Source: Escherichia coli (lineage in GTDB: Bacteria; Pseudomonadota; Gammaproteobacteria; Enterobacterales; Enterobacteriaceae). From it: a stretch of DNA of 64,000 bases. The stretch lies in assembly GCF_003334405.1 (NCBI RefSeq), contig NZ_QOWM01000002.1; one strand, 5' to 3'. Numbering within the stretch: position 1 is the stretch's first letter; each line of letters opens with the position of its first letter. The translations under genes and the position numbers were made by a program. Shown here in pieces: positions 20,328-24,887 of this stretch. The notes under the pieces are model-generated. The model was given only the letters and a program-made list of their open reading frames with translations, made no database searches and was not told where the DNA came from.

Positions 20328-22112
20328 ATGTGGTCAGACAAAGAGTCATCAGAAGACTACCTAAATTTTGGTGAAGTATCTCAGTTAGCCGTGGATGTAC
20401 TTACCACGAAAGATATGTTACCAGTATCTATCGGAATTTTTGGAAACTGGGGGGCAGGTAAATCCTCTCTGTTAAAACTGATAGAGCAAAAACTTGAGCA
20501 AGACGACAAAGATTGGATTGTTATCAATTTTGACTCTTGGCTCTATCAGGGGTACGACGACGCCCGTGCCGCACTTCTTGAAGTCATCGCTACAGAATTG
20601 ACAAAAGCTGCTGAAGGTAATTCTACCCTTATATCAAAAACTAAGAGACTCCTTAGTCGAGTTGATGGTTTTAGAGCTATGGGATTACTAGCTGAGGGTA
20701 CAGCTTTAATGGCAGGATTACCTACTGGCGGTTTGCTTTCTAGGGGGATTGGTGCATTAAGAAATATCACCGATGGCATCCAGAGCCAGGAAGAGTATGA
20801 GGCTTTAGGCAATATAGCTAAAGAAGGTAAAGAAACTGCTTGTGGTTTGATTAAACCACAAACAAAAAAAAGCCCCCCTCAGCAGATTGATGCCTTTCGT
20901 AAGGAATATGGGGAAATTCTAGAAGAACTTGGAAAGCCACTCATTGTGGTAATAGATAACCTAGACCGCTGTCTCCCTGCCAATGCTATCCATACACTTG
21001 AAGCTATCAGGCTATTCCTTTTCTTGACTAATACAGCCTTTATTATTGCAGCAGATGAGGACATGATTCGCTCTTCTGTGGCTGATTACTTCAAAGGGGC
21101 ATCACAGCGCCATCAAATAGATTATCTGGATAAGCTAATCCAGGTTCCTATTCGGGTGCCTAAGGCTGGGGTCCGTGAGATCCGTTCGTATCTGTTCATG
21201 CTTTATGCCATTGAACATGGCTTAGAAGGCGAAAAAATAACTATGCTCCGTGAGGGCTTAGAGAAGGCGTTACAGCAATCCTGGAAAGATGAACCAATCT
21301 CACGTCAGGAGGCCTTAAAAATGACTGGTGAAGCGGATGATAGCAACCTCGCGCTGGCGTTTGCGCGTGCTGACCGTATTGCTCCCATTTTAGCCAACTC
21401 TCCAATTATTCATGGTAATCCCAGGATCGTTAAACGCTTGTTGAATGTTGTGAAAATGCGATCTCAAATTGCGAAGCGACGAGCAATGCCTTTGGATGAA
21501 GCAATTATTACTAAGCTAGTAATTTTTGAACGCTGTGTTGGAGTGGATGGCACCGCTGATTTATATCATCTCGTGGATATTGAACAAGGTGTTCCCCAGA
21601 TACTTAAACAGCTTGACGATAATGGCGGTCAAATACCTACTGATGCACCAAAGACATGGACTGATAGTCCAACGACTAAATCTTTCATCAGTCAATGGGC
21701 CCAACTTGAACCTCGTCTTGGTGGGATTGACTTAAGGGCCGCCATATATCTGTCCCGAGAAACTATGCCAATAGGTGCATATGTGGTTGGTTTATCGCCA
21801 TCTGGACGGGAAGTACTAAATGCACTAATTGAATTGAAAAACACTAGTTCTCCTACAGCAGAAAACCTTTTGAAAGCACTTCCTCGTGAGGAGCAAATAC
21901 CTGTAATGGAAGGTTTAATTAACCAGTTACGGCAGGTATCAGATTGGGATCGTAAGCCCAGAGGCTTTTCCGGCGCATGTCTGTTGGCCCGCTACTCAAC
22001 AGATGCAGCCAGCATATTAATTCGTTATCTACAGGAATTACAGTTGGGGATGAAACGACCAGCGTGGATGACTGCAGCATTAAAAGATGAACAATGGAAT
22101 AAGGACGCTTAA
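20328..22112 (+). CDS. qatA: KAP-family P-loop NTPase, QatA-like
   Basis: 594 aa; Walker A 'GNWGAGKSS', Walker B 'VVIDNLDRC'. Confidence 0.7.
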   Translation: MWSDKESSEDYLNFGEVSQLAVDVLTTKDMLPVSIGIFGNWGAGKSSLLKLIEQKLEQDDKDWIVINFDSWLYQGYDDARAALLEVIATELTKAAEGNSTLISKTKRLLSRVDGFRAMGLLAEGTALMAGLPTGGLLSRGIGALRNITDGIQSQEEYEALGNIAKEGKETACGLIKPQTKKSPPQQIDAFRKEYGEILEELGKPLIVVIDNLDRCLPANAIHTLEAIRLFLFLTNTAFIIAADEDMIRSSVADYFKGASQRHQIDYLDKLIQVPIRVPKAGVREIRSYLFMLYAIEHGLEGEKITMLREGLEKALQQSWKDEPISRQEALKMTGEADDSNLALAFARADRIAPILANSPIIHGNPRIVKRLLNVVKMRSQIAKRRAMPLDEAIITKLVIFERCVGVDGTADLYHLVDIEQGVPQILKQLDDNGGQIPTDAPKTWTDSPTTKSFISQWAQLEPRLGGIDLRAAIYLSRETMPIGAYVVGLSPSGREVLNALIELKNTSSPTAENLLKALPREEQIPVMEGLINQLRQVSDWDRKPRGFSGACLLARYSTDAASILIRYLQELQLGMKRPAWMTAALKDEQWNKDA

Positions 22113-22864
22113 TGGGAACATCACAATCAAGTAAAGGTCCAGGAGGTGGCTCTCCGCTGGTTCCACCATGGGCTGATGATCAGCCACAGCAACCGTTACC
22201 CTCGCCGCAAGAAAGGAGGTTTGCGCCATTTCGAGAATCGTTGGGAAATGCGGTATCAAATGGAAATCGAGCAGATTTCAGAAAAGCCATAGGGCACTAC
22301 GCGCGAAAAGCCTCCGGAGGGAGCAGTAACGCTGCTCGGCGATTAGGGAGTGTCACGCAAGCTGGGGCCGAATTATTTGGGGCTTTAGTGGGAATGCCTT
22401 CGGCTCCCGGAGAACCAAGCATCGATTTGGGCAGTTTGGCAAGCCTTCCATGCGAAATAGCAATATCAACTATTGCTCAAGCTTTAACATCACAGGATGG
22501 TGACTCAGAAAAGATCTGTGCGGCCATGAACCATGCTTTAGTGGAGGCTCTTGATGGCGTAGAAATTTTCGATCCTCAAAAAATAACTGATGGTGTGATT
22601 GTTGACACAATGATTGGTTATCTAGCGGAAAGTATTTTCCTTCAGATGGTAATGGATTCTAATAGGGCATGGAACAAAGCAGATACACCTTCAAAGGCAA
22701 TTCATGCAGAAATTGAACTCCGGGAATTGATTAAAGTTGTTGTTGATAAACATATGGCACCAAAACTTGCCGGTAACATAAGATCGTTCACACGAAACCA
22801 AATGGTAAAAATTGAACGTCAGGCCATTATTGAGGCCTGGCAAGAATGGGAGGCATACCAGTGA
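22112..22864 (+). CDS. qatB: QatB-like protein, no recognisable domain
   Basis: 250 aa; start overlaps qatA stop; N-terminus 'MGTSQSSKGPGGGS'. Confidence 0.55.
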   Translation: MGTSQSSKGPGGGSPLVPPWADDQPQQPLPSPQERRFAPFRESLGNAVSNGNRADFRKAIGHYARKASGGSSNAARRLGSVTQAGAELFGALVGMPSAPGEPSIDLGSLASLPCEIAISTIAQALTSQDGDSEKICAAMNHALVEALDGVEIFDPQKITDGVIVDTMIGYLAESIFLQMVMDSNRAWNKADTPSKAIHAEIELRELIKVVVDKHMAPKLAGNIRSFTRNQMVKIERQAIIEAWQEWEAYQ

Positions 22865-24165: not shown

Positions 24166-24887
24166 GCATCGATATGCACTGTCATCTAGACTTATATCCT
24201 CGGCCAGACCTCGTGGCTGAAGAAAGTAAACGTCGAGGGACTTATATTCTGTCGGTGACAACAACACCTAAAGCATGGCATGGTACTTCTTTATTGGCTA
24301 AAGAAAGTCAACGAATCCGAACTGCTCTTGGGCTACATCCTCAAATCGCGCATCAAAGATCGCATGAGTTAGACCTGTTTGATTCATTGCTTTCGGAAAC
24401 TAAGTATGTAGGGGAAATAGGGCTTGATGGTGGACAGGGATTTAAAGAACATTGGGATATTCAATTGAAAGTGTTCCGACACATTCTCAACAGTGTAAAT
24501 CGGGCTGGTGGCAAGATTATGACTATCCATAGTCGGGGAAGTGCATCAGCGGTGCTTGATGAGATTGAAAATATCGATGGGGTGGCAATATTGCATTGGT
24601 TCACTGGAACACCTAAGCAGCTTGAAAGGGCAATTGATTTAGGATGCTGGTTCTCAGTGGGGCCTGCTATGCTCGATACAATAAAGGGTAAGGCCTTAGT
24701 TTTGAAAATACCCAAATCACGCATTCTTACAGAAACAGATGGGCCATTTGCTAAGTTTCGTAATGACCCACTAATGCCATGGGATAGTGGGATTGCAGAG
24801 AAACAGTTAGCCGCATTATGGGGGATTAGTCAGATGGAGGTTAATGCTCAGCTAGTTGATAATTTTAAGGTATTATGTACATCATAA
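24162..24887 (+). CDS. qatD: TatD-family metal-dependent DNase, QatD-like
   Basis: 241 aa; 'MHCHLD', 'EIGLD', 'ETDGPF' motifs; overlaps qatC by 4 nt. Confidence 0.75.
   Translation: MSIDMHCHLDLYPRPDLVAEESKRRGTYILSVTTTPKAWHGTSLLAKESQRIRTALGLHPQIAHQRSHELDLFDSLLSETKYVGEIGLDGGQGFKEHWDIQLKVFRHILNSVNRAGGKIMTIHSRGSASAVLDEIENIDGVAILHWFTGTPKQLERAIDLGCWFSVGPAMLDTIKGKALVLKIPKSRILTETDGPFAKFRNDPLMPWDSGIAEKQLAALWGISQMEVNAQLVDNFKVLCTS

What the first reader, a model, noticed from the sequence alone, without database searches (positions are those of the whole stretch)
20328..24887. QatABCD-type anti-phage operon inside the pheV island
Four co-directional genes with overlapping boundaries (1, 19 and 4 nt) encode a KAP-family NTPase ('GNWGAGKSS', 'VIDNLDRC'), a domain-less protein, a QueC-like PP-loop enzyme ('SGGLDS') and a TatD DNase ('HCHLD', 'ETDGPF'). 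This composition and order matches the Qat system as I remember it from E. coli defense-island surveys. GC content is well below the flanking backbone.
Basis: partly seen in the sequence, partly recalled or inferred. Interest (0 to 1): 0.7.

Follow-up and report, generated by a model that had tools for sequence, protein, structure and literature searches.

The report
Known QatABCD anti-phage operon
This is an intact copy of the already described four-gene QatABCD anti-phage defence operon, in a small genomic island next to the pheV tRNA gene of E. coli; it is ordinary in kind, but belongs to a sequence branch different from the ones studied in the laboratory.

Summary
The observation and the interpretation both hold. 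Four co-directional, overlapping ORFs lie at 20328-24887. They match the PADLOC models end to end: QatA 1133 bits, QatB 429, QatC 461, QatD 322. QatC and QatD also pass NCBI's curated Qat cut-offs and fail those for QueC and housekeeping TatD. QatA and QatB fall below NCBI's Qat cut-offs because this is a divergent clade: about 37% (QatC) and 26% (QatB) identity to the founder system of E. coli NCTC9009.

Every residue shown by mutagenesis to be needed in studied homologues is present:
- the QatC SGGxDS loop, the four zinc-binding cysteines and the T-x-T pair.

An AlphaFold model of QatB (pLDDT 96) matches only solved QatB chains in the PDB.

The same operon, at 99% identity or more, is in about 5% of complete E. 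coli genomes, including CFT073 and APEC O1, where RefSeq already names qatC and qatD. The cassette keeps its A-B-C-D order in seven other bacterial contexts. The island spans 17010-30540 and also carries a type I CBASS.

An Avs8B-like gene just upstream is not part of the system. Nothing here is new. The chemistry of Qat is still unresolved in the literature.

The parts
20328..22112 (+). qatA: KAP-family P-loop NTPase, 594 aa. Walker A is G39-S46 (K45); Walker B is I206-R214 (D210). [quoted passage not shown]
   Evidence: PADLOC QatA PDLC02210, 1133 bits, residues 1-593 on profile 1-593/593. Pfam KAP_NTPase, E 1.8e-54. NCBIfam QatA scores 385.8 bits, below its 600 cut-off. Motif positions. There is an AAGGA Shine-Dalgarno-like sequence a few nt upstream of the ATG.
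22112..22864 (+). qatB: presumed protein substrate or adaptor, 250 aa. N-terminal MGTS motif, an unstructured tail of about 37 residues, then an all-helical domain.
   Evidence: PADLOC QatB PDLC02212, 429 bits, full length. G2, T3 and S4 are invariant in 75 diverse homologues. The family profile hits solved QatB chains 9vll_A and 9zee_A at E about 1e-35. The AlphaFold2 model (pLDDT 96, pTM 0.92) has only QatB chains 9y01_A and 9y02_A as significant PDB matches.
22846..24165 (+). qatC: QueC-like PP-loop ATP pyrophosphatase with N- and C-terminal extensions. It is 439 aa from the ATG at 22846, or 434 aa from the GTG at 22861.
   Evidence: PADLOC QatC, 460.6 bits. NCBIfam QatC, 408.4 bits, above its 280 cut-off. 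Solved QatC structures match: 9zee_B at E 7e-62 and 9vlk_A at E 1.5e-52. S160, D164, S165, H184, R227, F231, T277, T279, C333, C343, C346 and C349 align with residues in P. aeruginosa QatC that the studies identify as ATP-binding, zinc-binding or substrate-site residues; the serines, the threonine pair and (in NCTC9009) the cysteines were shown by mutation to be needed for defence. Start ambiguity.
24162..24887 (+). qatD: TatD-family metal-dependent nuclease, 241 aa. It has H6-x-H8, E85, H123, H145, E191 and D193.
   Evidence: PADLOC QatD, 322 bits. NCBIfam QatD, 331.5 bits, above its 230 cut-off. Pfam TatD_DNase, E 3e-43. PDB 9xsn_A matches at E 5.6e-75 with 51.5% identity. Motif positions.
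17010..30540 (.). Context: the 13.5-kb pheV genomic island that carries the operon. It runs from a truncated glcE to the 3' end of tRNA-Phe.
   Evidence: blastn against K-12: window 12573-17009 matches yghO to the 5' part of glcE, and window 30541-34982 matches pheV-nupG. The 15.3 kb from yghD to the 3' part of glcE in K-12 is missing. By collinearity with BS74R-D, a tyrosine-type integrase lies at about 29081-30343 on the - strand.
30541..30616 (-). Context: the tRNA-Phe(GAA) gene pheV, the island's integration site.
   Evidence: ARAGORN. Rfam tRNA, 68.3 bits. 100% identity to K-12 pheV.

Best explanation
The locus is an intact QatABCD anti-phage defence operon of a divergent but already catalogued sequence clade. 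It was acquired horizontally as a four-gene cassette and sits in a small pheV island beside a type I CBASS.

How it most likely works, by transfer from studied homologues:
1. QatB and QatC form a 1:1 core complex.
2. After removal of Met1, the flexible N-terminal tail of QatB places Gly2 in the PP-loop active site of QatC.
3. QatC uses ATP to adenylate a still unidentified carboxylate substrate and transfers it to the Gly2 amine. This parallels Cap9 deazaguanylation in type IV CBASS, but probably uses a different small molecule, because the two residues that recognise 7-carboxy-7-deazaguanine (CDG) are replaced by threonines.
4. The same QatB tail tethers the TatD-type nuclease QatD.
5. QatA, a DNA-binding oligomeric KAP NTPase, and QatD widen the range of phages restricted.

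What is shown here: gene content, gene order, family membership, conservation of all functionally tested residues, and the QatB fold. What is inferred: complex formation, the modification chemistry, and protection by this particular copy.
For: Identity:
- PADLOC Qat models match full length.
- NCBIfam QatC and QatD score above their cut-offs.
- RefSeq names identical copies qatC and qatD.
- The QatB profile matches solved QatB at E about 1e-35, and the model matches only QatB structures in the PDB.
- QatC aligns to solved QatC at E 7e-62.

Functional integrity:
- All four ORFs are intact.
- QatC residues S160, D164, S165, T277, T279 and the four cysteines are conserved, as is QatB MGTS with the P15/P18 motif. 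These correspond to residues whose mutation abolishes or severely reduces defence in P. aeruginosa and NCTC9009 systems (PMC13279940; bioRxiv 10.1101/2025.11.03.686418).

The cassette as a unit:
- The A-B-C-D order, with near-identical gene lengths, recurs in seven other contexts, including Pectobacterium, Shewanella, Aeromonas and a Pseudomonas mendocina-type contig, with unrelated flanks.
- 86% nucleotide identity to Pectobacterium covers exactly window 20314-24865.

Mechanism in homologues:
- QatBC is sufficient against lambda-vir. QatA binds DNA and forms a heptamer or octamer.
- QatB binds both QatC and QatD, and the QatB tail is needed for QatD binding.
- Gly2 is the mature N-terminus by Edman sequencing.
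- QatC does not complement a queC deletion (PMC13329287).
Against: No experiment exists on this clade that I could find. The studied E. coli QatC (WP_038416547.1, from NCTC9009 or a close relative) differs from this one (WP_000508958.1). Identity to the founder is only about 37% for QatC and 26% for QatB.

NCBIfam QatA (386 bits, cut-off 600) and QatB (72 bits, cut-off 100) fall below their cut-offs.

The proposed modification has never been detected, even in the studied systems. Three groups failed to reconstitute QatC activity or to find a modified QatB.

Some QatC basic-patch residues that contact QatB in P. aeruginosa are changed here: R410K, H413L and R414K.
Confidence: 0.93

Rival explanations
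1. The functional unit is a five-gene operon. On this view the Avs8B-like gene at 19066-20196 is a sensor or regulator that belongs to this Qat clade.
For: The gene is on the same strand, 131 nt upstream of qatA. The only sigma-70-like site on the + strand upstream of qatA lies before it (19009-19038), none lies in the spacer, and there is no terminator-like site between the genes. In Pectobacterium, a full-length PD-Lambda-4_B (Avs8B) homologue sits in the same position, and it shares a C-terminal domain with the window ORF.
Against: Five of seven other contexts of this Qat clade have no such gene upstream. Homologues of the window ORF in Xenorhabdus, Yersinia and others lie without any qat gene in 4 of 4 contexts, near MobA, TraD and shufflon genes. 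The nucleotide similarity between E. coli and Pectobacterium starts only 14 nt before qatA. Avs8B is dispensable even for Avs8 defence.
Confidence: 0.04
2. The genes serve nucleoside or DNA metabolism rather than defence: a QueC paralogue for queuosine or 7-deazaguanine synthesis, together with a housekeeping TatD exonuclease.
For: There is weak similarity to QueC (Pfam E 3.3e-4) and clear TatD-family membership.
Against: QatC scores 21.3 bits against the QueC equivalog (cut-off 150.3). QatD scores 36.9 bits against TatD (cut-off 395). The CDG-recognising Tyr and Asp are replaced by T277 and T279. A QatC homologue fails to restore queuosine in a queC deletion strain. The operon contains no queD, queE, folE, tgt or dpdA gene. 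It lies on a low-GC island next to a CBASS.
Confidence: 0.01
3. The operon is an inactive relic that hitch-hikes on the island.
For: The island is littered with IS fragments and truncated genes. Truncated or fused copies of the operon exist in some strains (H38 and H39; P0004 and P0119).
Against: In this window all four ORFs are full length and all tested catalytic residues are intact. 243 genomes keep at least 80% of the operon, and 253 of the 260 matching records are at 99% identity or more. Distant taxa keep the proteins at 60-90% identity with fixed lengths, which indicates purifying selection.
Confidence: 0.03

Closest known systems
QatABCD of E. coli NCTC9009, the founder system (Gao et al. 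2020; structures 9vlk and 9vll)
   Same: It has the same four genes in the same order. It shares the KAP NTPase, the QatB MGTS tail, the QatC SGGxDS loop, CxxCxxC motif and T-x-T pair, and the TatD nuclease.
   Different: Identity is only about 37% for QatC and about 26% for QatB. QatB is 250 aa here against 282 aa, and QatC is 434-439 aa against 465 aa. The NCBIfam QatA and QatB models do not reach their cut-offs here. PADLOC keeps separate QatA and QatB models for the two branches.
QatABCD of Pseudomonas aeruginosa (PMC13279940; PDB 9zee, 9zef, 9y01, 9y02)
   Same: QatC aligns over residues 46-434 at E 7e-62, and all mutagenised active-site and zinc-site residues are conserved. The QatB model superposes on the solved QatB with TM 0.59/0.68.
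   Different: QatC identity is 37.5%. The QatB tail is shorter, about 37 residues against about 65. The QatC basic patch is partly changed: R410K, H413L and R414K.
Type IV CBASS Cap9-CdnD deazaguanylation (Wassarman et al. 2025)
   Same: A QueC-fold enzyme acts on the N-terminal glycine of a partner protein (MGGS there, MGTS here). This is the mechanistic model for QatBC.
   Different: The Qat operon has no CD-NTase or TGT gene. QatC has extra N- and C-terminal domains and lacks the Tyr/Asp CDG-binding pair. QatB is unrelated to CD-NTases. The neighbouring CBASS at 25440-27351 is type I and sits on the other strand.
Canonical QueC (preQ0 synthase) and housekeeping TatD
   Same: They share the PP-loop and zinc-site fold, and the TatD metal-hydrolase fold.
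   Different: Scores fall far below the family cut-offs, the substrate pocket is remodelled, and the genes are on an island rather than in the core genome.

Membership tests
QatABCD anti-phage system | Four co-directional adjacent genes in the order KAP NTPase, QatB, QueC-like, TatD-like | tested here: met
   The ORF map shows overlapping junctions. The same order recurs in seven other contexts.
QatABCD anti-phage system | QatA: KAP-family P-loop NTPase with Walker A and Walker B motifs | tested here: met
   PADLOC QatA, 1133 bits, full length. Pfam KAP_NTPase, E 1.8e-54. K45 and D210 are present. Caveat: NCBIfam QatA scores 385.8 bits, below its 600 cut-off.
QatABCD anti-phage system | QatB: conserved N-terminal MGTS motif on an unstructured tail, followed by the QatB all-helical fold | tested here: met
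   G2, T3 and S4 are invariant and P15 and P18 near-invariant in 75 homologues. PADLOC QatB, 429 bits. The profile hits solved QatB at E about 1e-35. The AlphaFold2 model matches only QatB chains. Caveat: NCBIfam QatB scores 72 bits, below its 100 cut-off.
QatABCD anti-phage system | QatC: QueC-like core with the SGGxDS loop, a Cys4 zinc site, T-x-T in place of Tyr/Asp, and N- and C-terminal extensions | tested here: met
   NCBIfam QatC, 408 bits, above its 280 cut-off. The alignment to 9zee_B covers residues 46-434, including both extensions.
QatABCD anti-phage system | QatD: TatD-family nuclease with intact metal ligands | tested here: met
   NCBIfam QatD, 331.5 bits, above its 230 cut-off. 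Pfam E 3e-43. HxH, E, H, H and E-x-D are present.
QatABCD anti-phage system | Formation of QatB-QatC (and QatB-QatD) complexes | not testable with these tools
   This is shown only for the P. aeruginosa and NCTC9009 proteins. No multimer prediction tool was available.
QatABCD anti-phage system | Protection against phage when expressed | not testable with these tools
   It needs plaque assays. I found no paper that tests this clade. The paper on the E. coli 46-1 system (PMC10308915) is not held.
[quoted passage not shown] | A score above the TIGR00364 cut-off, and the Tyr/Asp CDG-recognition residues | tested here: not met
   21.3 bits against a cut-off of 150.3. T277 and T279 stand at the Tyr/Asp positions.
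Housekeeping TatD / YcfH / YjjV | A score above the equivalog cut-offs | tested here: not met
   36.9 bits against 395, 40.7 against 438, and 39 against 481.
Type IV CBASS | A CD-NTase with an MGGS N-terminus, plus Cap9 and a TGT-like Cap10, in one operon | tested here: not met
   The operon contains no cyclase or TGT gene. The adjacent cyclase at 26023-27351 is on the - strand, begins MSHREL, and pairs with a 2TM effector.

The most novel reading that the evidence does not exclude
In Enterobacterales, this Qat clade may have been captured behind an Avs8B-like gene and be transcribed with it from one promoter (19009-19038). The variable-length (AEV)n protein would then tune or sense for Qat, making a five-gene variant system. 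The evidence does not strictly exclude this, but it points against it.
Probability: 0.04. Interest if true: 0.45.

Novelty: already known. Interest (0 to 1): 0.18.

Why it matters
The finding mainly confirms annotation. The island next to pheV in this strain carries two defence systems, QatABCD and a type I CBASS. RefSeq leaves qatA and qatB of this clade unnamed ('KAP family P-loop NTPase fold protein' and 'hypothetical protein'), because the NCBIfam models were built on the other branch.

The wider interest lies with Qat itself. What QatC attaches to QatB, and how that stops phage, is unresolved after three structural studies. This clade is present in model pathogens such as CFT073 and APEC O1. 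It is about 37% (QatC) and 26% (QatB) identical to the studied proteins, yet it conserves every essential residue. That makes it a natural comparator for finding the missing substrate.

Tried and rejected
1. Five-gene hypothesis. I tested whether the upstream Avs8B-like ORF belongs to the system. I rejected this after looking at seven Qat contexts and four contexts of the ORF's own homologues.

2. Group II intron remnant. The spacer between qatD and the CBASS, around 25109-25306, looked to me by eye like a group II intron domain V/VI remnant. The Rfam gathering-threshold scan of 18000-31000 found only the tRNA, so I dropped the idea.

3. Distal att repeat. I searched the window for a copy of the last 25 nt of pheV, allowing up to 3 mismatches. 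Only the tRNA itself matched.

4. Promoter and terminator scan of 18800-25500. It gave fewer promoter-like sites than shuffled sequence and no + strand terminator after qatD. This is uninformative about operon boundaries.

5. Whether this clade has been tested experimentally. The paper on the E. coli 46-1 Qat system is not held. No paper links qatABCD with CFT073.

6. PDB search for a QatA relative. None was found.
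Full report
OBSERVATION

The four ORFs exist exactly as described: 20328-22112 (594 aa), 22112-22864 (250 aa), 22846-24165 (439 aa) and 24162-24887 (241 aa), all on the + strand. The A/B junction is TAATG, with 1 nt shared. The C/D junction is ATGA, with 4 nt shared.

The 19-nt B/C overlap follows from taking the ATG at 22846. In four homologous loci the gene starts at the position of the window's GTG at 22861, which would give a GTGA overlap of 4 nt and a 434-aa protein. The five extra residues, MGG(I/L)(P/L), are encoded in the conserved 3' end of qatB. The start of qatC is therefore ambiguous, but this changes nothing else.

All quoted motifs are present:
- QatA: GNWGAGKS at residues 39-46 and IVVIDNLDR at 206-214.
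- QatC: SGGLDS at 160-165.
- QatD: HCH at 6-8 and ETDGP at 191-195.

GC is 43.8% in the operon against 51.4% in the backbone. No 4.56-kb backbone window falls below 49.5%.

IDENTITY

Against PADLOC-DB, the four proteins hit the Qat models full length and hit nothing else comparably:

| Protein | PADLOC model | Bits |
|---|---|---|
| QatA | PDLC02210 | 1133 (residues 1-593 on profile 1-593/593) |
| QatB | PDLC02212 | 429 |
| QatC | PDLC02214 | 461 |
| QatD | PDLC02215 | 322 |

| Protein | Model | Bits | Cut-off |
|---|---|---|---|
| QatC | Qat QatC | 408 | 280 |
| QatC | canonical QueC | 21 | 150 |
| QatD | Qat QatD | 331.5 | 230 |
| QatD | housekeeping TatD-family equivalogs | 37-41 | 395-481 |
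| QatA | Qat QatA | 386 | 600 |
| QatB | Qat QatB | 72 | 100 |

Pfam finds KAP_NTPase in QatA (E 1.8e-54), nothing in QatB, a faint split QueC hit in QatC, and TatD_DNase in QatD (E 3e-43). QatA and QatB fall below NCBIfam's cut-offs, which is why RefSeq calls them 'KAP family P-loop NTPase fold protein' and 'hypothetical protein' while naming qatC and qatD in identical copies.

A DIVERGENT CLADE OF A KNOWN SYSTEM

Solved Qat structures exist for P. aeruginosa (9zee, 9zef, 9y01, 9y02) and E. coli NCTC9009 (9vlk, 9vll). The window's QatC aligns to them at E 7e-62 and 1.5e-52, but at only about 37% identity. QatB aligns to 9vll_A at E 8e-8 and about 26% identity. QatD is 51.5% identical to 9xsn. 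QatA has no solved relative.

Because QatB was the weakest link, I tested it further.
- An exhaustive search found a continuum of homologues from 90% down to about 27% identity, including the 280-295-aa forms typical of the studied systems.
- In a 75-sequence alignment, G2, T3 and S4 are invariant, and P15 and P18 nearly so.
- The profile of that alignment hits both solved QatB chains end to end at E about 1e-35.
- An AlphaFold2 model (pLDDT 96, pTM 0.92; a tail of about 37 residues with no secondary structure, then ten helices) has the QatB chains of the QatB-QatC complex as its only significant PDB matches (E 2e-7, probability 1.00, TM 0.59/0.68).
- Homologues carry the newer Pfam family PF28083 'QatB'.

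For QatC, every residue shown experimentally to matter in P. aeruginosa or NCTC9009 maps to an identical residue here:
- PP-loop: S160, D164 and S165.
- Adenine contacts: H184, R227 and F231.
- The invariant threonine pair T277/T279, which replaces the Tyr/Asp CDG-recognition pair.
- Zinc ligands: C333, C343, C346 and C349.

DISTRIBUTION AND UNIT OF TRANSFER

The operon is in 259 of 5426 complete E. coli genomes. 243 of them carry at least 80% of it, and 253 of the 260 matching records are at 99% identity or more. Carriers include CFT073 and APEC O1.

In APEC O1 the same 9.3-kb module (window 18352-27673: a VasL remnant, the upstream ORF, qatABCD and the CBASS) sits in a different island context, beside grp microcompartment genes.

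Outside E. coli, seven contexts keep qatA (592-595 aa, split into two ORFs in one), qatB (249-251 aa), qatC (432-439 aa) and qatD (237-247 aa) in order, with entirely different flanks: integrases, toxin-antitoxin pairs, type I restriction genes, NERD and Fic genes. These contexts include Pectobacterium aroidearum, a 10.5-Mb genome, a Shewanella ANA-3 plasmid, a Pseudomonas mendocina-type contig and Aeromonas. Nucleotide identity of 86% to Pectobacterium covers exactly window 20314-24865. The four-gene cassette is therefore the mobile unit.

CONTEXT

Comparison with K-12 gives three collinear blocks:
- Window 1-4183 matches pitB to yghQ.
- Window 12573-17009 matches yghO to the 5' part of glcE.
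- Window 30541-34982 matches pheV to nupG at 100% identity.

The island is therefore 17010-30540 (13.5 kb). It replaces the 15.3 kb from yghD to the 3' part of glcE in K-12. It is bounded by pheV at 30541-30616 on the - strand. By collinearity with strain BS74R-D, a tyrosine-type integrase lies at about 29081-30343.

Convergent with qatD lies a type I CBASS: the cyclase at 26023-27351 (587 bits) and a 2TM effector at 25440-26015 (274 bits). 'Inside the pheV island' is correct.

THE UPSTREAM GENE

ORF 19066-20196 (376 aa, 33% GC) lies 131 nt before qatA. It has no Pfam or NCBIfam hit. Its residues 209-288 match the C-terminal part of PD-Lambda-4_B (Avs8B) at E 3.7e-6. In Pectobacterium, the gene in the same position is a full-length Avs8B homologue (591 bits) and aligns with the window ORF.

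I tested whether this makes a five-gene system. The evidence is against it.
- Five of seven Qat contexts lack such a gene.
- Four of four contexts of the ORF's own homologues (Xenorhabdus, Yersinia and others) lack qat genes and lie near MobA, TraD and shufflon genes.
- Avs8B is dispensable for Avs8 defence.

I treat it as an independent mobile-element gene.

MECHANISM

None of this has been tested for this copy; it is transferred from homologues.

Gao et al. 2020, as cited in PMC13376578, showed that the NCTC9009 system protects against P1, lambda and T3. Mutations in the QatA Walker B motif (D210A) and at QatD catalytic residues reduce defence, while deleting qatB or mutating the QatC ATP site abolishes it.

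Three studies (PMC13279940, PMC13376578, bioRxiv 10.1101/2025.11.03.686418) establish the following:
- QatB and QatC form a 1:1 complex that alone suffices against lambda-vir.
- The QatB tail inserts Gly2, the mature N-terminus by Edman sequencing, into the QatC active site.
- QatB G2D, tail deletions, QatC S156A/S161A and T278/T280 mutants abolish defence.
- QatB also binds QatD through its tail.
- QatA binds ssDNA and dsDNA, forms a heptamer or octamer, and does not bind the other components.
- QatA and QatD widen the phage range.

QatC does not complement a queC deletion (PMC13329287).

The working model is that QatC adenylates an unidentified carboxylate and transfers it to the Gly2 amine of QatB, analogous to Cap9 deazaguanylation of CdnD. 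However, no group has detected the product or reconstituted the activity.

For this locus I therefore commit to the following:
- About 0.93 that it is a functional QatABCD defence operon.
- About 0.6 that its core chemistry is an N-terminal modification of QatB by QatC.
- No confident statement on how phage replication is stopped.

NOVELTY

Already known. The exact sequence is in hundreds of public genomes, half of its genes are named Qat by RefSeq, and PADLOC has dedicated models for this branch. The only mildly useful points are two. This branch has apparently not been studied experimentally. NCBI's QatA and QatB models miss it.

Noticed in passing
window 19066-20196 (+): A low-GC (33%) 376-aa ORF lies 131 nt upstream of qatA. 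It has no Pfam or NCBIfam hit, but its C-terminal part (aa 209-288) resembles PD-Lambda-4_B (Avs8B). Pectobacterium has a full-length Avs8B homologue at the same position before its qatA. Homologues of the window ORF elsewhere lie without qat genes, so it is probably an independent mobile-element gene.
   Followed up: yes
window 20048-20108: A perfect 9-nt tandem repeat (TTGCTGAGG, 6.8 copies) encodes (AEV)n inside the upstream ORF. From the record spans and gene lengths, I infer that other E. coli copies are 63 to 522 nt longer at this point. Many database copies of the protein are 'partial', perhaps because assemblies break at the repeat. The low copy number here could be real or an assembly collapse.
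   Followed up: partly
window 25440-27351 (-): A type I CBASS lies convergent with qatD: an oligonucleotide cyclase (442 aa, PADLOC 587 bits) and a 2TM/SLATT effector (191 aa, 274 bits). It travels with qatABCD as one 9.3-kb module (window 18352-27673), which is also found in APEC O1 in another island context.
   Followed up: partly
window 16196-18301: The island's left junction lies at about 17009/17010, inside glcE. The 622-aa ORF at 16196-18064 is a chimera of the 5' part of glcE and a read-through antisense to a - strand ORF (16982-18301). That ORF looks by eye like an Ag43/AIDA-type autotransporter fragment, but I did not test it against a profile. Relative to K-12, the 3' part of glcE, glcF, glcG, glcB, glcA and yghJ to yghD are missing.
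   Followed up: partly
window 4184-12572: 8.4 kb between yghQ and yghO is absent from K-12, which has an IS5 there. It encodes a fatty acyl-AMP ligase (10435-12165, -), a serine-palmitoyltransferase-like enzyme (8072-9244, -) and an LptF-like permease (5891-6961, +). This looks like a lipid-biosynthesis cluster.
   Followed up: no
window 22846-22864: The start of qatC is ambiguous. The ATG at 22846 gives a 19-nt overlap and 439 aa, as RefSeq annotates. The GTG at 22861 gives a GTGA overlap and 434 aa, and matches the ATG start of homologues in four other genomes.
   Followed up: yes
proteins P0004 and P0119 (E. coli): Database proteins fuse part of QatB to other sequence. P0004, for example, is 359 aa, carries PHO4 plus QatB domains, and is named 'inorganic phosphate transporter'. 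This suggests deletions in some strains that join pitB to qatB across the region.
   Followed up: no
window 25109-25306: A GC-rich stretch in the spacer between qatD and the CBASS contains a 65-aa ORF. By eye it recalled a group II intron 3' end, but the Rfam gathering scan found nothing there.
   Followed up: partly
L002 11272-13555 (Pectobacterium aroidearum): Downstream of the Pectobacterium qatABCD lie two unannotated genes and a TIR-domain protein (PADLOC PDC-S66, 129 bits). An SBD-HNH type IV restriction-like gene lies upstream. This is another defence islet around the same cassette.
   Followed up: no
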